From Dehalococcoidia bacterium (lineage in GTDB: Bacteria; Chloroflexota; Dehalococcoidia; Lucifugimonadales; UBA3495), in contig OZ253548.1 in the NCBI GenBank assembly GCA_965262595.1, forward strand, positions 859,740-923,739: 64,000 bases of DNA, read 5' to 3'. Shown piece by piece: positions 27,230 to 36,565 of the stretch. Under the pieces are notes generated by a model that was not told where the DNA came from, did not search any database, and saw nothing but the letters and a program-made list of their open reading frames with translations. A program made the position numbers and the translations under genes. How positions within the stretch are numbered: the stretch's first letter is position 1; the number at the start of each line of letters is the position of its first letter.

Positions 27230-27812
27230 AAGTGGAGGGAACCAGGAAAACCTGTAAGCCGGGTTCTGTATCCCGCCGGCGTTGCCGCGCCGCCAAAAAG
27301 TATTGGCGGTGTGCACCGGACGGGCGGTGACCATCTATCTAGCCCCCAGGCGGTAGTCTTGAGGCTACCGTCCGGCCCAGCGCGCCAAAATGGCGCCGGA
27401 CAACGTTGCCGTCAGGGTCAAGCAGCCAACCCGGGGACGAGCCGGACGCCCATAGTCCCCCTATTCGGCCTTGCTCCAGGTGGGGTTTAGCCGTCGCTGT
27501 GTCACCACAGACGACCGGACGCTCTTACCGTCCGATTTCAACCTTACCGCCGGATTTACCCACTCCCGTTGTTCTGCTGAAAAGCGATCGGAAATGCCAT
27601 AGAGTTTTTAGACTTTTCGGCCATTGAGGGGAGCAATAGAACCCGGAGGCGGTATGTTTCTGTGCCACTATCCGTCCCCTGAGGCAACAGCTAAGTCGCC
27701 ACAGGAGCCTGGGCGTTACCCAGCACCCTGTCCAGTGGAGCCCGGACTTTCCTCCCCAAAGAGGTTGCCCCCAATGCGGCGGTCACCCGGTTCGCCTGGC
27801 CTCTCCAGCCGC
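27230..27812 (-). ncRNA. rnpB: RNase P RNA, bacterial type A, unusually long (ends approximate)
   Basis: The reverse complement contains GGAGGAAAGTCCGGGCTCC (27756..27738) and GGCTAAACCCCACCTGGAGCAAGGCCGAATAGGGGG (27492..27457). It also contains ACAGAACCCGGCTTA (27269..27255). A P1-like pairing joins GGAGAGGCCAGG (27806..27795) with CCTGGTTCCCTCC (27246..27234). Confidence 0.9.
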
Positions 27813-31877: not shown

Positions 31878-32787
31878 TCCGCTAATAAACACTTTGAATC
31901 CGCGAATCGGATTTATTGGCGCCGGTGTCCTGGGCACCGGCCTGGCCTTGGCTTTGGCCCAACAAGACTACCGCGTTAGCGCCGCCAATAGCCGCAGCCC
32001 GGCCTCGGCCAAGGCGATGTGCGAGAAGATTCCGGGCTGTCGCGTGTTTGCCTCCGCCCAGGAATTAGCCGACGCCACCGACCTGGTGTTTATCACCACT
32101 CCCGATGAAGCCATAGGATCTATCGCTGCGTCGGTAGGGTGGCGCCCGGGGCAAGGGGTAATCCATTGCTGCGGAGCGGCGGGCACGGATATATTGAGGG
32201 CGGCTAAAGCCTTTAAGGCGGTCACCGGCGCATTCCACCCGTTCCAAACTTTTGCCGGCTTGACCGACCCGTCTAAAACCGTCGAACGCCTTGCCGGAGT
32301 CACCTTCGCGGTATCCGCCGAAGGCTGGTTGGGCGAGTTTCTGAATGAAATGGCACGGCGTTTAGGCGGCAATCCGGTGAGCATAAGAGACGCTGAGCGG
32401 CCGCTCTACCATGCGTCGGCGGTGCTGAGCTGCGGTTACCTGGCAGCGCTGTTGCAGGGAGCGGTTGAGCTGTGGCAGACAATGGGTTTCAGCCAGGAAC
32501 AAGCCGTCGGCGCCTTGCTTTCCCTGAGCCGGGCAACGCTTGGAAATATAGAAGAGGTCGGCTTGCCAAACTGCGTCACCGGCCCGGTAATTCGAGGCGA
32601 CGCCGAAACCATTGCATCCCATCTGGAATCAATTGTACGGGCCAAGCCGGACTTGACCCGGGTTTACCTTGCATTGACCGAAGCTTCCCTTTCGCTGGCG
32701 GCCGAGGCCGGGATTGGCCCCGAAAAAGAAGGCGCCATTCGTCAATTGCTGCGGCAATACGATCACCAAAACATACCAAGCCAATAA
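31870..32787 (+). CDS. Rossmann-fold / DUF2520-type protein (putative ketopantoate-reductase-like)
   Basis: IGFIGAGVLGTGLALALAQ is the Rossmann motif. The C-terminal YHASAVLSCGYLAALL region is typical of DUF2520 proteins. The gene lies directly upstream of panB. Confidence 0.6.
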   Translation: MDDPLINTLNPRIGFIGAGVLGTGLALALAQQDYRVSAANSRSPASAKAMCEKIPGCRVFASAQELADATDLVFITTPDEAIGSIAASVGWRPGQGVIHCCGAAGTDILRAAKAFKAVTGAFHPFQTFAGLTDPSKTVERLAGVTFAVSAEGWLGEFLNEMARRLGGNPVSIRDAERPLYHASAVLSCGYLAALLQGAVELWQTMGFSQEQAVGALLSLSRATLGNIEEVGLPNCVTGPVIRGDAETIASHLESIVRAKPDLTRVYLALTEASLSLAAEAGIGPEKEGAIRQLLRQYDHQNIPSQ

Positions 32788-32804
32788 AACCGGAGGTCGG
32801 AATC

Positions 32805-33635
32805 ATGCCCAGAATAACCGTCAGGAACATCTCCGAAATGAAGCGGCGCGGGGAGAAAATCCCGATGATTACTGCCTACGATTACACTACGGCCATCTTG
32901 GCGGACGCCGCACAGATACCGATTATTCTTGTTGGTGACAGCTTGGGCATGGTAGTCCTGGGTTACGAATCTACCGTTCCGGTAACGCTGGAGGATATGA
33001 TTCACCACTCCAAAATGGTAGCCCGGGGCAGCAAGAACGCCCTGATCGTCGCCGACCTGCCCTTTATGTCCTACCGGGTCGATCCGGCGCAGGCCCTGGG
33101 CAACGCCGCGCGCCTAATGCAGGAAGGCGGAGCCCACACGGTCAAGCTGGAGGGCGGAGAAAATGTGGCGCCTATTGTACGGAGCATTGTTGAGTGTGGC
33201 ATTCCGGTGATGGGCCATATCGGCGTTACACCCCAATCGGTCAATTTCTACGGCGGCTACCGAGTTCGGGGGCGCAGTTCCAAAGAAGCGGCTCAATTGC
33301 TGAAAGACGCCCTGGCTTTAGAAGCGTCAGGAGCCTATGCGGTAGTACTGGAAATGGTGCCGACTCCCCTGTCCCGGCTCATTTCTCAAAAGCTGACTAT
33401 TCCCACAATCGGTATCGGCGCCGGACCCGACTGCGACGGGCAAGTGCAGGTGCTTCATGATATGCTCGGCCTGTTCACCGACTTCGTTCCCAAGCACGCC
33501 AAGAAATACGCCGACTTGGCCCAGGTAATTCAGGAGGCCTTCGTCAGGTACGGGACGGAAGTTAGAGAAGGCGCCTTTCCCACAGCGAAGGAAAGTTTTT
33601 CCATGGACGAGTCGGCGCTGGAAGATTTGGGCTAG
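32805..33635 (+). CDS. panB: 3-methyl-2-oxobutanoate hydroxymethyltransferase
   Basis: KIPMITAYDYTTA, LVGDSLGMVVLGY and HTVKLEGG are PanB motifs. The ATG at 32805 has GGAGG 9 nt upstream. The track ORF start at 32472 overlaps the previous gene and is rejected. Confidence 0.9.
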   Translation: MPRITVRNISEMKRRGEKIPMITAYDYTTAILADAAQIPIILVGDSLGMVVLGYESTVPVTLEDMIHHSKMVARGSKNALIVADLPFMSYRVDPAQALGNAARLMQEGGAHTVKLEGGENVAPIVRSIVECGIPVMGHIGVTPQSVNFYGGYRVRGRSSKEAAQLLKDALALEASGAYAVVLEMVPTPLSRLISQKLTIPTIGIGAGPDCDGQVQVLHDMLGLFTDFVPKHAKKYADLAQVIQEAFVRYGTEVREGAFPTAKESFSMDESALEDLG

Positions 33636-33684: not shown

Positions 33685-33718
33685 AGGCGCTGGGGGAAAT
33701 ACCCAGCGCCTTTAATCT
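33685..33718. terminator. hairpin terminator between convergent panB and the tubulin-operon end
   Basis: AGGCGCTGGG (33685-33694) pairs with CCCAGCGCCT (33702-33711), with a 7-nt loop, followed by TTAATCTT. Confidence 0.55.
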
Positions 33719-33749: not shown

Positions 33750-34568
33750 CTAAGACCGGGGCCGGCGGCTTTCAATTTGGTCAATAATCAACTGGAGCTC
33801 GTCCAAGACTGCATCAACTGCTACCTGGTCCGTCTGCTGAACCGCTATGCCTTCCCGATCAAATATTCCGGTGCGGTCCAGTTGCACATTGACCTGGATG
33901 TCTCCGGCGCCATTGGCCAGGATCAGGTCCTGCTCAATCAGGGACAATCGCAGCGTGGGAGAAAAGAGACTGGGTTCATAGGGTTGGAAGTGATAAGACT
34001 GCTGCGATATCATCGTCCCTTCTTCCCGGCTTATGGAAAGGACTCGCTCCGGAGCATCCGGATAAAACAGGGTTATTTCCGCGTTATCAATAAGGGTGCC
34101 CTGGCTGTAGTCATCTATCTTTACCGCACGAGTAATAGCGGTTCCGTCTCCGCTATACAGCGCAAAAAACGCGGTAATGTCCTGGGTGCTGGTATCGACC
34201 TGAAAGGTGAACCAGGTGCGTACCGAACCGGCCAGAAGTTGCAGGTCAACGAAGTCTTCGGCAAGAACTTCACCATAACTCACGGCCGGAATCGGATACT
34301 TAACATTACTACCGGTCGGGGACATAACATCAGGTTGAGAAACCGGGGGAGCCAAGGTAGGAAGCTCCTGCAACGGGGCAGTCTGTGGAGAAGGAACCTG
34401 GGTGATGGGAGCGGGTGGGGGTACTACCGGCGCCGGGCCAGAAGCATTGTTTCCAAGCAGCAAGTAAATAACTACGCCGCCAACAATCAATAAAGCAATT
34501 AAAAATACAACAATAAGAACCGGGGAACCGGCACCTCCCCGGTGCTCAGGGGATCGTGAGACTCTCAA
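33750..34568 (-). CDS. single-pass membrane protein, partner of the tubulin-like GTPase
   Basis: TTG start with GGAGG 7 nt upstream. It has a short basic N-terminus and one TM segment (VLIVVFLIALLIVGGVVIYLLL). These are followed by a Pro-rich linker (PAPVVPPPAPITQVPSPQTAP...) and a roughly 190-aa domain with no recognised family. Confidence 0.55.
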   Translation of the reverse strand: MRVSRSPEHRGGAGSPVLIVVFLIALLIVGGVVIYLLLGNNASGPAPVVPPPAPITQVPSPQTAPLQELPTLAPPVSQPDVMSPTGSNVKYPIPAVSYGEVLAEDFVDLQLLAGSVRTWFTFQVDTSTQDITAFFALYSGDGTAITRAVKIDDYSQGTLIDNAEITLFYPDAPERVLSISREEGTMISQQSYHFQPYEPSLFSPTLRLSLIEQDLILANGAGDIQVNVQLDRTGIFDREGIAVQQTDQVAVDAVLDELQLIIDQIESRRPRS

Positions 34569-34594
34569 TTTTGCCTCCAGTTTATTTTCAGTAG

Positions 34595-34621
34595 CAGGCT
34601 CAGGGAACTACCCTGAGCCTG
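34595..34621 (-). promoter_or_regulatory. intercistronic hairpin between the tubulin-like gene and its partner
   Basis: CAGGCTCAGGG pairs with CCCTGAGCCTG: an 11-bp perfect stem with a 5-nt loop. There is no U-tract, so it is more likely a processing/stability or attenuating element than a full terminator. Confidence 0.45.
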
Positions 34622-34639
34622 AATCAATTCTCAAAACGC

Positions 34640-35905
34640 CTACAAATTGGGCAACACGTCGGTTAGCTTGGAAATGTCCTCCCAACGCCGGCCCCGTCCT
34701 TCCCGTCGGTCGCGGGAAGTGGTCATCATGTTAGCCGCTTCCCGGTAGAACCATTCGATCCGGTCCATTGCCTTTCCTTCACCAATGTTGGAAAGGATGG
34801 CGGTAACGCTGATGGTATCTGAGGTCCGACCGGGGTAAGTTCCCTTACGACGCCCGGCCCCGGGTACACGCTCAGCGAAGGTGTTATCCATCATCTCTAC
34901 AATCTCTGCGGTAGCCTCGTTGGGGGGGCCGCTGAAGAGGCCAAGAACGTGCTGGGCGTCGTAGAGTATTTTCCCCCTTTCGTCATAGTCGCAGTCCAGG
35001 GAAAGCTCGGCCAAAGCCTGGGTAACCACATTTTGGGCCCGCTCGATCTGGGCCTTGGACACGGAAAAGTGCTGCTGAACCCGATCGTGATTAGTGCGGA
35101 TGCGGCCAAACCAGGAACCCGATTTCCTGGTTTCAGGAATAGCGGCATGGCTGACGCCAATTACGGTTGGGCCCCGGAGGATACGGATAACGTCATTGGC
35201 ATCAAGAACTTCGCCAATATAGCGGCGCTCAGTTTCCTCGCCAACACACAGTATGTCCATGAAAGAATCAGCGATCTTCCGATTGATGGTAGCGTAGTTC
35301 AATCCCATCGCGTCTTGCTTGCGGGCGAACTTCTGGTTATCGACCAGGAACACCGCGTCGGCTTTGGAGTTATCGAGCACCTTCTTCAAACAGGTTGCCG
35401 TGTTTATGACGCTGTCCGGTTCGTCGTATTGGTTCTCGAACGGCAATACCAGCATCGCGTAAACCGGCTTTTTGAATTCATCCTTTAGCAGGTCAACGAT
35501 CACTCCCACCGAGCCGGAGCCGGTTCCGCCGGCGGTAGTGGCGATTACCAAAATGGCGTCGGCGGAGTAAACGTCCCCATGATCCCGGATAGTTGACGCA
35601 ATTTTGCGGGAATCGCGCCGGGCCTGTTCGGCGCCATCGGCGTTCACTTTTCCAGCGCCCCGGCCCCTAAATTCATCCGTTGAGCCCAGCAAAATTGTGT
35701 GGTCATCAGTCTGGGGTATATGCTGCAGCGCATAAAGGTCACCGGCGCCCAGATTAACCGCAAAAACGCCGCTGGAAATCGGGTCGGAATCCGAACCGGT
35801 GAACAGCCGCACCCGCCGGTTAGCCCAAACCCAATGACCCAGCGCAACAAATTCATCCGCAATGTTAGAACCACCTTGTCCAGTGCCTACAATAACGAGC
35901 TTCAT
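34640..35905 (-). CDS. tubulin/FtsZ-superfamily GTPase, CetZ-like
   Basis: MKLVIVGTGQGGSNIADEF is the T1 loop, and ILVIATTAGGTGSGSVGVIVDLLK is the tubulin signature (A/G)GGTGSG at aa 125-131. LVDNQKF and a second domain (VLDANDVIRILRG..., LFSGPPNE...RKGTYPG...VTAILSNI) are collinear with my recollection of Haloferax CetZ1. AAGGAG lies 6 nt upstream of the ATG. Confidence 0.75.
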   Translation of the reverse strand: MKLVIVGTGQGGSNIADEFVALGHWVWANRRVRLFTGSDSDPISSGVFAVNLGAGDLYALQHIPQTDDHTILLGSTDEFRGRGAGKVNADGAEQARRDSRKIASTIRDHGDVYSADAILVIATTAGGTGSGSVGVIVDLLKDEFKKPVYAMLVLPFENQYDEPDSVINTATCLKKVLDNSKADAVFLVDNQKFARKQDAMGLNYATINRKIADSFMDILCVGEETERRYIGEVLDANDVIRILRGPTVIGVSHAAIPETRKSGSWFGRIRTNHDRVQQHFSVSKAQIERAQNVVTQALAELSLDCDYDERGKILYDAQHVLGLFSGPPNEATAEIVEMMDNTFAERVPGAGRRKGTYPGRTSDTISVTAILSNIGEGKAMDRIEWFYREAANMMTTSRDRREGRGRRWEDISKLTDVLPNL

Positions 35906-36318
35906 CGTGAACTCCTTAAAACGATAAGCGAATACTCGACGGTACCAGCAGGACCCTTACGTAACCCCAACTCATACTTGTCGATTCCTTCAGTTCAATT
36001 AAAACTTCTTTAAAACAACCACCTATTTCAGTGCACCCGAGTATCGGCCACACTCGAACGTCGGCGCCCGTATAACCCATTGCGCCGACACCAAAATTAA
36101 TTGTAACACGTTGAACGAATTAGGCGCAATTGGGATAGGGCGAATGTATGAGAGCTTCCACGAAGCTGCCAAAAGTAACTCCCCAGGCTGCGTTCCTTTT
36201 AGCAGTTGAAGTAGTTAGATCGGCTCGCCACGAGCAATGTGTCGATGATCTCTCGGTTTGGAGTCAATTTTCGTAACTGCCGGCTAGCCCTGACCCGGTA
36301 TATCGCTTATGAAGTTCG

Positions 36319-36347
36319 TTGACACAACGCCTTTGATAGCATATATT
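36319..36347 (+). promoter_or_regulatory. sigma70-like promoter candidate for the ABC permease operon
   Basis: TTGACA (36319-36324), a 17-nt spacer, then TATATT (36342-36347). This would give a leader of about 210 nt before the ATG at 36566. Confidence 0.35.
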
Positions 36348-36565
36348 TTTCTGGAACTTTCAAGGGACCTAAATCCCTTGATTCGAATGTAGGGAACACG
36401 GCCGGCCGGACCCAAAGTGCCCTGCCCGCTTTTCGGCTGTACCAGCTACCATAAATATACGAATATACGCGACGGGGTTTTGGAGTTTACACCGCGGGCC
36501 GGCGGCTTTTCAATGGTAGGAACCCTGGAATCCTATCGCTAGCGCCATAAGTCAGAGGTATAGGA

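What the first reader, a model, noticed from the sequence alone, without database searches (positions are those of the whole stretch)
33750..35905. CetZ-like tubulin-superfamily GTPase with a single-pass membrane partner in a bacterial genome
**Seen in the sequence**
- The 421-aa product of 34640..35905 carries both tubulin/FtsZ hallmarks: the T1 loop VGTGQGGSN and the T4 signature TTAGGTGSG.
- It is not FtsZ-like in detail. It lacks the GGGTGTG signature, the NLDFAD T7 loop and the FtsZ C-terminal peptide.
- It is collinear over its whole length with Haloferax CetZ1 as I remember it:
  - MKLxxIGxGQxG at the start
  - AVNxxxxDL
  - DAxLVxxxxxGGTGSG...PVY...LP
  - VFDNDAW against LVDNQKF
  - a second domain with LxGPP...RxGxYP...LSxx
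- Its basic tail is RREGRGRRWEDISKLTDVLPNL.
- Seventy-one nt downstream is a 272-aa protein. The gap holds an 11-bp perfect hairpin followed by GGAGG-TTG.
- The partner has a short N-terminus, one TM helix, a Pro-rich linker and an unrecognised domain of about 190 aa.
- A terminator follows at 33685, so this is a discrete two-gene operon. It is flanked by a 660-bp ORF-free upstream region.

**Established knowledge**
- CetZ proteins are described as archaeal cell-shape cytoskeletal proteins.
- Known bacterial tubulin relatives are FtsZ, TubZ/PhuZ, BtubAB and the FtsZl families.

**Inference**
- This may be a horizontally acquired or undescribed bacterial CetZ-type cytoskeletal module anchored by a dedicated membrane partner.
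Basis: partly seen in the sequence, partly recalled or inferred. Interest (0 to 1): 0.8.

Follow-up and report, generated by a model that had tools for sequence, protein, structure and literature searches.

The report
Bacterial CetZ-like tubulin with membrane partner
A Dehalococcoidia (Chloroflexota) bacterium, from a group reported to lack a peptidoglycan wall, encodes a close relative of the archaeal cell-shape protein CetZ, always paired with an uncharacterised single-pass membrane protein, so it may use an archaeal-style internal skeleton linked to its envelope.

Summary
The 421-aa product (34640..35905, minus strand) is a tubulin-superfamily GTPase. Its closest relatives by Pfam, by sequence against solved structures and by predicted fold are the archaeal CetZ proteins, not FtsZ, TubZ, FtsZl-1 or BtubA/B.

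The window is bacterial and not chimeric. It carries a bacterial RNase P RNA and is syntenic with complete Dehalococcoidia chromosomes.

The protein belongs to a bacterial clade (83% bootstrap). Every named member is Dehalococcoidia or Chloroflexota, and the clade lies outside the canonical archaeal CetZs. Deeper branching, and therefore the direction of any transfer, is unresolved.

The 272-aa downstream gene is co-conserved in 61 of 61 informative species loci, across at least three genomic contexts. It encodes an N-in/C-out single-pass membrane protein with:
- a conserved 14-residue basic cytoplasmic peptide
- a Pro-rich linker
- a beta-rich ectodomain with no recognisable relative

A sister bacterial clade lacks this partner.

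The bacterial clade ends in an FtsZ-like C-terminal peptide: KDIPSLL in the sister clade, degenerate LPNL here. Archaeal CetZs lack it.

One 2023 paper mentions Chloroflexota CetZ-like sequences in passing. The two-gene module, the partner and the tail motif are, as far as I could find, undescribed. Function is inferred, not shown.

The parts
34640..35905 (-). Gene for the 421-aa CetZ-like tubulin-superfamily GTPase
   Evidence: Pfam Tubulin 78.6 bits and CetZ_C 47.1 bits against a cut-off of 21.6. Best solved-structure matches are CetZ1, CetZ2 and Methanosaeta CetZ, by sequence and by predicted fold, with TM 0.89-0.91 for 4b46/4b45.
35912..35917 (-). Shine-Dalgarno AAGGAG, 6 nt before the ATG of the CetZ-like gene
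   Evidence: Read from the sequence.
35864..35890 (-). T1 loop VGTGQGGSN (residues 6-14), phosphate binding
   Evidence: G7, G9, Q10 and G12 are invariant in both bacterial clades.
35771..35797 (-). Clade-specific 9-residue insertion GSDSDPISS (residues 37-45) in the H1-S2 loop
   Evidence: Present in the main clade, absent in the sister clade and gapped in CetZ1. It lies between predicted H9-30 and E47-52.
35513..35539 (-). T4 tubulin signature TTAGGTGSG (residues 123-131)
   Evidence: G126-G131 are invariant.
35189..35209 (-). T7 loop VLDANDV (residues 233-239). D238 aligns with the catalytic E218 of CetZ1.
   Evidence: D235, A236 and D238 are invariant in both clades. Alignment to CetZ1 VVDSSEI.
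35084..35116 (-). Extended M-loop with a hydrophobic/basic tip, SWFGRIRTNHD (residues 264-274)
   Evidence: Main-clade-specific relative to the sister clade. It aligns with the CetZ1 M-loop tip LLSRL, described as a CetZ1-subfamily hallmark. Low pLDDT, as expected for a loop.
34643..34720 (-). C-terminal tail (residues 396-421): basic stretch, conserved Trp, terminal LPNL-COOH
   Evidence: P419 and L421 are invariant in both bacterial clades. [ILV]Px[LF] occurs in 118/120 main-clade proteins and 1/43 archaeal-side representatives.
34595..34621 (-). Intergenic 11-bp perfect hairpin, with no U-tract after it
   Evidence: The 71-nt gap folds at -25.5 kcal/mol, z -3.37. Not conserved family-wide.
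34574..34578 (-). Shine-Dalgarno GGAGG for the partner gene
   Evidence: A purine-rich SD-like sequence (GGAGG in most) precedes the start in most related loci.
33750..34568 (-). Gene for the 272-aa single-pass (N-in/C-out) membrane partner, TTG start
   Evidence: A profile of the family hits the ORF immediately downstream, on the same strand, in 61 of 61 informative loci. No Pfam, NCBIfam, PHROG or PADLOC family matches.
34524..34568 (-). Partner cytoplasmic N-terminal peptide MRVSRSPEHRGGAGS (family motif MRxSRxPExRxG)
   Evidence: E8 and R10 are invariant; S4, R5 and P7 are nearly so. K+R is enriched on the N side of the TM in 61/61.
34452..34523 (-). Partner transmembrane helix (residues 16-39)
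   Evidence: AF2 helix 16-39. The family's TM segments have median mean hydropathy 3.09, and there is no second hydrophobic segment.
34290..34451 (-). Partner Pro-rich linker of variable length (about residues 40-93)
   Evidence: pLDDT below 50 for residues 41-87. Length and sequence vary across the family.
33753..34289 (-). Partner extracytoplasmic domain (about residues 94-272): beta-strands, one helix, two more strands, then a long C-terminal helix
   Evidence: pLDDT above 90 over most of residues 90-190. No Foldseek PDB match at E <= 0.001. No profile match to PDB sequences.
33685..33711 (-). Terminator-like hairpin (10 pairs, 8 G-C) followed by CTTACTTTTC
35906..36565 (.). 660-bp divergent intergenic region between the CetZ-like gene and an ABC-transporter permease gene
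   Evidence: Only two modestly conserved blocks among 24 close relatives, at 36306-36346 and 36086-36125. Promoter-like sites on both strands.

Best explanation
The locus is a chromosomal two-gene module of Dehalococcoidia (Chloroflexota).

The first gene encodes a CetZ-type tubulin-superfamily GTPase. It keeps every nucleotide-binding and catalytic motif, so it most likely forms GTP-dependent protofilaments. Its enlarged H1-S2 and M-loops may promote lateral sheets or bundles on the cytoplasmic face of the membrane.

The second gene encodes an N-in/C-out single-pass protein. Its conserved 14-residue basic cytoplasmic peptide is proposed to dock on the filament. Its Pro-rich stalk and beta-rich ectodomain reach into the envelope.

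The pair would then couple an internal cytoskeleton to the external cell surface, to shape the cell or pattern the envelope. These bacteria are reported to lack peptidoglycan, to have an S-layer-type wall, and to keep FtsZ and FtsA for division.

What is shown: identity, fold class, motif conservation, bacterial host, strict co-conservation of the pair, and partner topology. What is inferred: polymerisation, physical contact between the two proteins, and the role in shape or envelope.

My confidence by step is about 0.9 for 'CetZ-like GTPase in a bacterium', about 0.85 for 'functionally linked two-gene module', and about 0.35 for the coupling mechanism and shape role.
For: Identity:
- Pfam Tubulin plus CetZ_C, both above gathering cut-offs.
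- phmmer against PDB gives CetZ1 1.4e-22 over the full length, CetZ2 8.5e-16 and Methanosaeta CetZ 6.6e-9, against TubZ 1e-5, gamma-tubulin 4e-4 and FtsZ 6.5e-4 or worse.
- The AF2 model (pTM 0.81) matches 4b46 and 4b45 at TM 0.89-0.91 and rmsd 2.6-2.8 A, ahead of all FtsZ and TubZ entries.

Activity: T1, T4 and T7 residues are invariant across two bacterial clades, and D238 aligns with the catalytic E218 of CetZ1.

Host: bacterial RNase P RNA lies 7 kb away. The same flanking genes appear in complete Dehalococcoidia chromosomes.

Module:
- The partner is immediately downstream on the same strand in 61 of 61 informative loci.
- The flanks fall into at least three unrelated contexts.
- A 54-100 nt gap (longer, up to about 250 nt, in a few loci) with an SD-like purine-rich sequence before the partner start in most loci.
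- A terminator follows the second gene.

Partner: N-in/C-out in 61/61, conserved cytoplasmic motif, confident ectodomain model.

Co-variation: the main clade, which has the partner, differs from the partner-less sister clade by insertions in the H1-S2 loop and the M-loop.

Context from papers:
- Dehalococcoidales and SAR202 keep mraZ-mraW-ftsA-ftsZ but lost the peptidoglycan genes and have S-layer-like walls (PMC10608941; PMC11994032).
- CetZ1 controls rod shape in Haloferax and needs its M-loop tip and C-terminal tail.
Against: - No experiment or complex prediction shows that the two proteins touch.
- The partner exposes only about 14 residues to the cytoplasm.
- The sister clade works without the partner.
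- CetZ1 is reported to bind liposomes on its own.
- The family has an FtsZ-like C-terminal peptide that could tether it through FtsA or SepF instead.
- The ectodomain has no recognisable envelope-binding fold.
- I could not verify that the very genomes carrying this pair lack peptidoglycan genes or contain ftsZ. That rests on published surveys of the orders.
- Mean conservation of the partner (0.52) is much lower than that of the GTPase (0.83).
Confidence: 0.5

Rival explanations
1. It is a second division-ring protein. The CetZ-like GTPase co-assembles with, or assists, FtsZ at mid-cell in wall-less Dehalococcoidia, as FtsZ2 does in archaea. It would be tethered through its FtsZ-like C-terminal peptide to FtsA or SepF, and the partner would be a divisome-associated envelope protein, comparable to FtsN.
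For: The bacterial clade ends in an FtsZ-type peptide: KDIPSLL in 116/120 sister-clade proteins, against E. coli DIPAFL, and a degenerate LPNL here. These lineages retain ftsA and ftsZ but no septal peptidoglycan machinery. The partner's architecture (short basic N-terminal peptide, TM, Pro-rich linker, globular ectodomain) resembles FtsN, from my own knowledge of FtsN.
Against: - Sequence, Pfam and fold all place it with CetZ, not FtsZ.
- The pair lies next to pantothenate and ABC-transporter genes. None of the 64 loci shows division genes among the conserved flanking families, although most of those families were not annotated.
- The main clade's tail lacks the acidic residue of the full FtsZ motif (0/120).
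Confidence: 0.17
2. It positions or assembles the horizontally acquired archaellum or another surface machine, as reported for CetZ1 in Haloferax, with the partner acting as an envelope adaptor.
For: Archaellum clusters were transferred from Methanotecta archaea to Dehalococcoidia and Anaerolineae (PMC12488501). SAR202 isolates encode archaella (PMC10444878). CetZ1 is reported to influence assembly of the motility machinery (abstracts).
Against: The conserved flanking gene families of the 64 loci that I could identify are metabolic or transport genes, and I saw no archaellum genes among them, although most families were not annotated. Co-occurrence of the pair with archaellum clusters was not tested. 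The archaellum papers do not mention CetZ.
Confidence: 0.1
3. The two genes are neighbours without a shared function. The membrane protein acts independently, for example as an envelope or adhesion protein, and is merely co-transcribed.
For: No direct evidence of interaction. The partner evolves much faster. The sister clade has no partner.
Against: Adjacency, order, strand and short spacing are kept in 61 of 61 informative species-level loci while the flanks are reshuffled. No partner homolog was found away from a CetZ-like gene among the loci examined.
Confidence: 0.1
4. It is a TubZ/PhuZ-type DNA-segregation tubulin of a plasmid, phage or integrated element.
For: TubZ structures are detectable relatives (E 1e-5; Foldseek TM 0.62-0.77). 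There is a weak match to one PHROG of unknown function (9e-7).
Against: - The setting is chromosomal and syntenic in many complete genomes.
- GC content is like the surroundings.
- No TubR-like DNA-binding gene is present; the only conserved neighbour is a membrane protein.
- CetZ matches are far stronger.
- Conservation of 66-90% identity across the 64 species-level loci is typical of a core gene.
Confidence: 0.02

Closest known systems
Archaeal CetZ1/CetZ2 (Haloferax volcanii; PDB 4b46, 4b45) and Methanosaeta CetZ (3zid)
   Same: - Two-domain architecture, Tubulin plus CetZ_C.
- Full-length collinear alignment.
- Best sequence and fold matches.
- GGTGSG T4 signature and an acidic T7 residue.
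- Long C-terminal helix followed by a short hydrophobic terminal peptide.
- Extended M-loop with a hydrophobic tip, as in the CetZ1 subfamily.
   Different: - Bacterial host.
- Only about 27% identity to CetZ1, and outside the canonical CetZ clade.
- Extra H1-S2 loop insertion.
- The tail is LPNL (sister clade DIPSLL, FtsZ-like) rather than the acidic/hydrophobic tails of archaeal CetZs.
- A dedicated membrane-protein gene downstream, which was not found outside Dehalococcoidia.
'CetZ-like' Chloroflexota-Dehalococcoidia sequences noted by Santana-Molina et al. 2023 (PMC9871819)
   Same: Almost certainly the same group of proteins. That paper reports that a CetZ C-terminal-domain model hits bacterial Chloroflexota sequences at about 1e-10.
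   Different: The paper gives one sentence and calls the groups 'sparse' and 'paraphyletic'.

Here the group is abundant: more than 900 proteins at 90% clustering for the window's clade, and 5,120 proteins at E <= 1e-10 for a profile of the wider bacterial clade, a count that may include archaeal CetZs. It is also monophyletic at 83% in my tree.

The partner gene, the two subclades and the tail motif are not discussed in the text I could read.
FtsZ with its C-terminal-peptide adaptors (FtsA, ZipA, SepF)
   Same: - Tubulin-superfamily GTPase.
- Globular core, then a basic or variable linker, then a short conserved terminal peptide.
- The sister clade's KDIPSLL fits the same pattern as E. coli FtsZ DIPAFL.
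   Different: - Fails the FtsZ equivalog model (37 against 295 bits).
- No FtsZ_C match at E <= 1.
- T4 and T7 sequences differ.
- Not in the mraZ-ftsA-ftsZ cluster.
- Binding of the tail to any adaptor is untested.
Single-pass cytoskeleton-to-envelope couplers (FtsN with FtsA; RodZ with MreB)
   Same: Works-like comparison only. The partner is an N-in single-pass protein with a short conserved cytoplasmic segment, one TM helix, a Pro-rich stalk and a globular outer domain, and it is genetically tied to a cytoskeletal gene. The FtsN and RodZ architectures are from my own knowledge.
   Different: No sequence or fold similarity to SPOR, RodZ or ZipA domains. The host is reported to lack peptidoglycan.

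Membership tests
CetZ (tubulin superfamily) | Tubulin/FtsZ GTPase domain with T1, T4 (GGTGSG) and acidic T7 motifs | tested here: met
   PF00091 at 78.6 bits. The motifs are invariant across both bacterial clades.
CetZ (tubulin superfamily) | CetZ-type C-terminal domain (Pfam CetZ_C, PF21011) | tested here: met
   47.1 bits against a gathering cut-off of 21.6, covering profile positions 4-178 of 180. PF21011 is precomputed on all 240 listed relatives.
CetZ (tubulin superfamily) | Closer to solved CetZ structures than to FtsZ, TubZ or tubulin | tested here: met
   Sequence: 1.4e-22 against 1e-5 or worse for non-CetZ chains. Fold: the top three Foldseek hits are the three CetZ entries.
CetZ (tubulin superfamily) | Phylogenetic placement inside the clade of canonical archaeal CetZs | tested here: inconclusive
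   In a neighbour-joining tree of 87 sequences, the window falls in a 23-representative bacterial clade (83% bootstrap) that excludes all CetZ1-like representatives. Nodes joining it to archaeal groups have under 30% support. No maximum-likelihood tree was possible.
CetZ (tubulin superfamily) | Archaeal host (the family is described as archaea-specific) | tested here: not met
   Bacterial RNase P RNA is in the window. All named relatives are Dehalococcoidia, Chloroflexota or SAR202. Reviews call CetZ archaea-specific.
CetZ (tubulin superfamily) | Role in cell-shape control through GTP-dependent polymerisation | not testable with these tools
   Needs biochemistry and genetics.
FtsZ | Scores above the FtsZ equivalog model TIGR00065 and carries the FtsZ_C domain | tested here: not met
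   37 bits against a cut-off of 295.2. No FtsZ_C match at E <= 1.
FtsZ | GGGTGTG signature and NxDFAD T7 loop | tested here: not met
   The sequence has AGGTGSG and VLDANDV.
FtsZ | Conserved C-terminal peptide of the D-I-P-x-F-L type | tested here: inconclusive
   The window clade has only [ILV]Px[LF] (LPNL; 118/120) and never the full pattern (0/120). The sister clade has the full pattern in 116/120.
TubZ / PhuZ | Plasmid or phage context with a TubR-type centromere-binding partner | tested here: not met
   Chromosomal and syntenic. The only conserved neighbour is a membrane protein. The only PHROG match is a weak one to a family of unknown function.
FtsZl-1 (Pfam Tubulin_2) | Match to PF13809 above its cut-off | tested here: not met
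   19.2 bits against a cut-off of 27, over 43 residues only.
BtubA/B and tubulins | Tubulin_C domain and closest similarity to tubulins | tested here: not met
   No Tubulin_C match. BtubA E 0.06, gamma-tubulin 4e-4.
Partner: any described family (FtsN, RodZ, ZipA, FliL, others) | Significant match to a curated model or a solved structure | tested here: not met
   No Pfam family. NCBIfam gives only a TM-helix-level FliL match at 15 bits against a cut-off of 187. Foldseek PDB gives nothing at E <= 0.001. The family profile against PDB gives a best E of 0.029, over the N-terminal TM-containing region only (profile positions 8-65).

The most novel reading that the evidence does not exclude
Peptidoglycan-less Dehalococcoidia, including the abundant marine SAR202 group, determine cell shape or envelope organisation with an archaeal-type CetZ cytoskeleton rather than a wall-synthesis machine. 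That cytoskeleton has been adapted to a bacterial cell in two ways. It gained an FtsZ-type C-terminal peptide for bacterial membrane tethers. In one large clade it also gained a new transmembrane coupler that links the filament to the S-layer. This would parallel the published transfer of the archaellum into the same lineages.
Probability: 0.25. Interest if true: 0.8.

Novelty: new variant of a known kind. Interest (0 to 1): 0.62.

Why it matters
CetZ is still presented in the field's reviews as an archaea-specific third branch of the tubulin superfamily. Here it appears as a deeply conserved core gene, 66-90% identical across the 64 species-level loci retrieved, in a major bacterial class that has been reported to have lost peptidoglycan and gained S-layers and archaella.

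If the pair works as proposed, it would give three things:
- a bacterial model for CetZ function
- the first candidate transmembrane partner for any CetZ-type protein
- a concrete answer to how wall-less, S-layered bacteria such as SAR202 and Dehalococcoides relatives control their shape

The FtsZ-like tail on a CetZ-type core is also a testable clue to how a foreign or ancient cytoskeletal protein is plugged into bacterial membrane tethers.

Tried and rejected
- **Archaeal or chimeric contig:** rejected. Bacterial RNase P RNA, even GC content, and the same gene order in complete Dehalococcoidia chromosomes.
- **FtsZ, FtsZl-1, TubZ/PhuZ or BtubA/B membership:** rejected by model scores and structure ranks.
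- **Defence system:** no PADLOC match.
- **A third module gene:** the same-strand gene after the partner in one subclade lies 240-1,600 nt away and looks, by eye only and without a family scan, like a dienelactone-hydrolase-type enzyme. Not part of the unit.
- **Partner fold identification:** Foldseek on the full model and a profile search of PDB sequences found nothing significant. The weak beta-barrel and MucB-like hits have TM below 0.3 and I do not rely on them.
- **Hairpin as a conserved regulatory element:** rejected as a family feature (median z -0.8). It is real in the window and some close relatives.
- **Taxonomic labelling of mid-distance relatives:** cluster look-ups named only a few.
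- **ftsZ in the same genome:** could not be tested.
- **Cavalier-Smith 2020 (PMC7203096):** it contains both 'CetZ' and 'Chloroflexi', but the CetZ passages lie beyond the text that is held.


Full report
**1. Observation**

- The minus strand carries a 421-aa ORF (34640..35905, ATG, preceded by AAGGAG).
- Seventy-one nt downstream lies a 272-aa ORF (33750..34568, TTG, preceded by GGAGG).
- The gap contains a perfect 11-bp stem with a 5-nt loop at 34595-34621. The gap folds at -25.5 kcal/mol, z = -3.37 against dinucleotide-preserving shuffles.
- A terminator-like hairpin with a T-rich tail follows the second gene at 33685-33711.
- Upstream lies a 660-bp divergent intergenic region, up to an ABC-transporter permease gene.
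- The quoted motifs are all in the translation: VGTGQGGSN, TTAGGTGSG, the absence of GGGTGTG and NxDFAD, and the tail RREGRGRRWEDISKLTDVLPNL.

**2. What the 421-aa protein is**

- Pfam gives Tubulin (78.6 bits) and CetZ_C (47.1 bits, cut-off 21.6, nearly the whole model). Tubulin_2, the FtsZl-1 family, is below its cut-off.
- The NCBI FtsZ equivalog model scores 37 bits against a cut-off of 295.
- Against all PDB sequences, the best three matches are 4b46, 4b45 and 3zid at 1.4e-22 (full length), 8.5e-16 and 6.6e-9. TubZ, gamma-tubulin, FtsZ and BtubA follow at 1e-5 to 0.06. Foldseek's descriptions identify those three entries as Haloferax CetZ1, Haloferax CetZ2 and Methanosaeta CetZ.
- An AlphaFold2 model built on 26 sequences (pLDDT 78.8, pTM 0.81) again finds these three as the top hits. 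TM is 0.89-0.91 with rmsd 2.6-2.8 A for 4b46/4b45, and 0.78 with rmsd 5.3 A for 3zid. FtsZ and TubZ reach TM 0.82 at most, with rmsd 3.6 A or more.
- The model has a long C-terminal helix (378-415) followed by a disordered terminal peptide.
- There is no meaningful phage or defence family match.

**3. Whose genome**

- The window holds a bacterial class A RNase P RNA 7 kb away and has even base composition.
- A scan of one genome per species found 64 loci encoding 66-90% identical proteins. All are titled Dehalococcoidia, Chloroflexota or SAR202, except one labelled Saccharibacteria. Many lie on complete 2.6-5.1 Mb chromosomes.
- About twenty of them share the window's flanking genes on both sides.

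The contig is neither archaeal nor chimeric.

**4. Place in the superfamily**

- An exhaustive HMMER pass over 1.84 billion cluster representatives found only 285 with E <= 0.001.
- I built a neighbour-joining tree of the 84 near-full-length representatives plus the window protein, the 4b46 CetZ1 sequence and E. coli FtsZ (read from NC_000913). The window falls in a clade of 23 representatives with 83% bootstrap. That clade excludes every representative close to CetZ1.
- All named members of the clade are Dehalococcoidia or Chloroflexota.
- Nodes linking this clade to archaeal groups have under 30% support. Its nominal neighbours, Nitrososphaerales proteins, join it at 9.5%.
- The window protein is about 27% identical to CetZ1 and about 23% to E. 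coli FtsZ over aligned columns.

So it is CetZ-like by domain content and fold, and it forms its own bacterial branch. Whether that branch arose by transfer from archaea cannot be told from my tree.

**5. The pair**

- A profile of the 272-aa family hits the ORF immediately downstream, on the same strand, in 61 of the 64 loci. In the other three, the contig ends at or inside the GTPase gene.
- Flanking genes fall into at least three unrelated arrangements, and only the pair is constant.
- A same-strand gene that follows in one subclade lies 240-1,600 nt away and looks like a hydrolase, by eye only.
- The word-indexed search found just 64 partner relatives. All were unnamed or 'hypothetical', and the only one carrying an organism name is a Dehalococcoidia bacterium. 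None has a Pfam domain.
- A sister bacterial clade (about 391 aa, 37-41% identical; named members are Dehalococcoidales or Chloroflexota) lies in a gap-cetZ-like-dnaX-ybaB-recR-recO context without any such partner.

The partner is thus specific to the window's clade and strictly linked to it.

**6. Partner anatomy**

- The family shares an N-terminal motif MRxSRxPExRxG, one strongly hydrophobic helix, a Pro-rich linker of variable length, a conserved domain of about 170 residues and a conserved C-terminal helix.
- AlphaFold2 predicts the helix at 16-39, disorder at 41-87, and a confident beta-rich domain with pLDDT above 90 over most of residues 90-190.
- In 61 of 61 members, lysine plus arginine is enriched on the N-terminal side of the helix (median 4 against 0), and there is no second hydrophobic segment. 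The protein is therefore N-in/C-out, with only about 14 residues in the cytoplasm.
- Neither Foldseek against the PDB nor a family-profile search of PDB sequences finds a significant relative.

**7. Expression signals**

- The gap between the genes is 54-100 nt in most loci, longer (up to about 250 nt) in a few, with a purine-rich SD-like sequence before the partner start in most of them.
- The partner starts with TTG in 25 loci, essentially the window's subclade, and with ATG in 35.
- The hairpin is significant in the window and in several close relatives, but not family-wide (median z -0.8).
- A weak start codon plus a stem-loop would be expected to give less partner than GTPase. That is inference.

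**8. Residue-level clues**

- The GTPase is far more conserved than the partner: mean column conservation 0.83 against 0.52.
- T1, T4 and the T7 Asp-x-x-Asp are invariant in both bacterial clades, and D238 aligns with E218 of CetZ1.
- Relative to the partner-less sister clade, the window's clade has insertions at 37-45 (H1-S2 loop), 264-274 (M-loop, tip SWFGRIR), 316-322 and 377-379.
- The M-loop tip aligns with LLSRL of CetZ1. A preprint describes that tip as a CetZ1-subfamily hallmark needed for function. It also reports that the hydrophobic C-terminal tail is required and that CetZ1 binds liposomes.
- From my own knowledge of microtubule structure, the M-loop and H1-S2 loop make the lateral contacts between tubulin protofilaments. 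These insertions therefore suggest sheet or bundle formation. That is inference.

**9. The tail (an unplanned finding)**

- The bacterial clade ends in a short peptide that resembles the FtsZ C-terminal peptide.
- In the sister clade, 116 of 120 proteins end in [DE][ILV]Px[LFM][LFMI], typically KDIPSLL. E. coli FtsZ, read from the genome record, has DIPAFL.
- The window's clade keeps only [ILV]Px[LF] (LPNL; 118 of 120), with P419 and L421 invariant.
- Of 43 archaeal-side representatives, 1 and 0 match these two patterns.
- From my own knowledge, that FtsZ peptide is the docking site for FtsA, ZipA and SepF. Whether these tails bind such tethers is untested.

**10. Biological setting from papers**

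- Dehalococcoidales and SAR202 keep mraZ-mraW-ftsA-ftsZ but have lost the peptidoglycan-synthesis genes and have S-layer-like walls. Basal Dehalococcoidia retain the wall genes (PMC10608941).
- SAR202 genomes contain ftsZ and ftsA, lack ftsW and ftsI, and some encode archaella (PMC11994032; PMC10444878).
- A complete archaellum locus was transferred from Methanotecta archaea into Dehalococcoidia and Anaerolineae (PMC12488501). That paper does not mention CetZ.
- These are order-level statements. I could not check them in the genomes that carry this pair.

**11. Most likely mechanism**

The best-supported reading has four steps.
- The GTPase forms GTP-dependent filaments at the inner face of the membrane.
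- The partner's conserved cytoplasmic peptide docks on those filaments.
- The partner's stalk and ectodomain reach the envelope.
- The pair therefore couples the cytoskeleton to the cell surface, for shape or envelope organisation, alongside an FtsZ/FtsA division system.

The first gene's identity and the genetic linkage are shown. Contact and function are inferred.

Rivals are:
- a second division-ring protein, favoured by the FtsZ-like tail
- a role in archaellum placement
- mere co-transcription
- a TubZ-like segregation system, effectively excluded

**12. Novelty**

- Within the searchable library, the only paper that ties CetZ-like proteins to Chloroflexota is Santana-Molina et al. 2023. 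It mentions them in one sentence and notes the CetZ_C similarity.
- Reviews of CetZ call the family archaea-specific.
- JGI names some of these proteins CetZ, while NCBI names them 'tubulin/FtsZ family' or 'hypothetical'.
- The abundance and monophyly of the bacterial clade, its split into two subclades, the strictly linked membrane partner and the FtsZ-like tail are, as far as I could find, not described.

I rate it a new variant of a known kind.

**13. Limits**

- The tree is neighbour-joining with a single outgroup.
- Taxon labels exist for only a minority of relatives.
- No complex could be predicted.
- No experimental data exist for any member.

Noticed in passing
P0352-P0471 (sister clade) and window 34643-34666: Bacterial CetZ-like proteins end in an FtsZ-type C-terminal peptide. 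KDIPSLL-like tails occur in 116/120 sister-clade proteins, matching the E. coli FtsZ DIPAFL pattern. The window's clade has a degenerate LPNL. Archaeal-side representatives lack it (1/43 and 0/43).
   Followed up: partly
L066 and L067, 839-6176; L068, 5001-6179: The sister Dehalococcoidales clade of CetZ-like genes sits between gap (GAPDH) and dnaX-ybaB-recR-recO. In some genomes it is duplicated, with two opposite-strand genes of unknown function (176 aa and 669 aa, no Pfam) between the copies.
   Followed up: partly
window 27239-27798 (-): The bacterial class A RNase P RNA match spans 560 nt for a 367-position model, implying about 190 nt of insertions.
   Followed up: no
L035 and L041: One MAG (JADFFS01, isolate B28T3L11) carries two diverged copies of the whole GTPase-plus-partner pair on separate contigs (74% and 71% identity to the window protein). 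This is either a duplication of the module or a mixed bin.
   Followed up: no
L052: A locus titled 'Candidatus Saccharibacteria' carries the pair (66% identity) with unique flanks. It is probably a mis-binned Chloroflexota contig, possibly a rare transfer.
   Followed up: no
P0220, P0236 and their clusters: Nitrososphaerales (Thaumarchaeota) MAGs encode 'tubulin/FtsZ family' proteins 40-44% identical to Haloferax CetZ1. They are the nominal nearest archaeal neighbours of the bacterial clade in my tree, but with only 9.5% support.
   Followed up: partly
window 34519-34543 (-): A terminator-like hairpin followed by a T-rich run lies inside the partner ORF, at about codons 9-17. The number of such sites in the region is not above the shuffled expectation.
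   Followed up: no
window 36086-36125 and 36306-36346: These are the only two modestly conserved blocks in the 660-bp upstream region among 24 close relatives. The second coincides with a near-consensus plus-strand promoter-like site (TTGACA-17-TATATT) facing the ABC permease gene.
   Followed up: partly
window 33750-34568 and loci L001-L023, L054, L056: The TTG start codon of the partner gene is conserved throughout the window's subclade (25 loci), while other subclades use ATG.
   Followed up: partly
window 32472-33635 (+): The mechanical ORF for panB has a spurious N-terminal extension of about 112 aa that overlaps the preceding gene. The Pfam match begins at residue 114.
   Followed up: no
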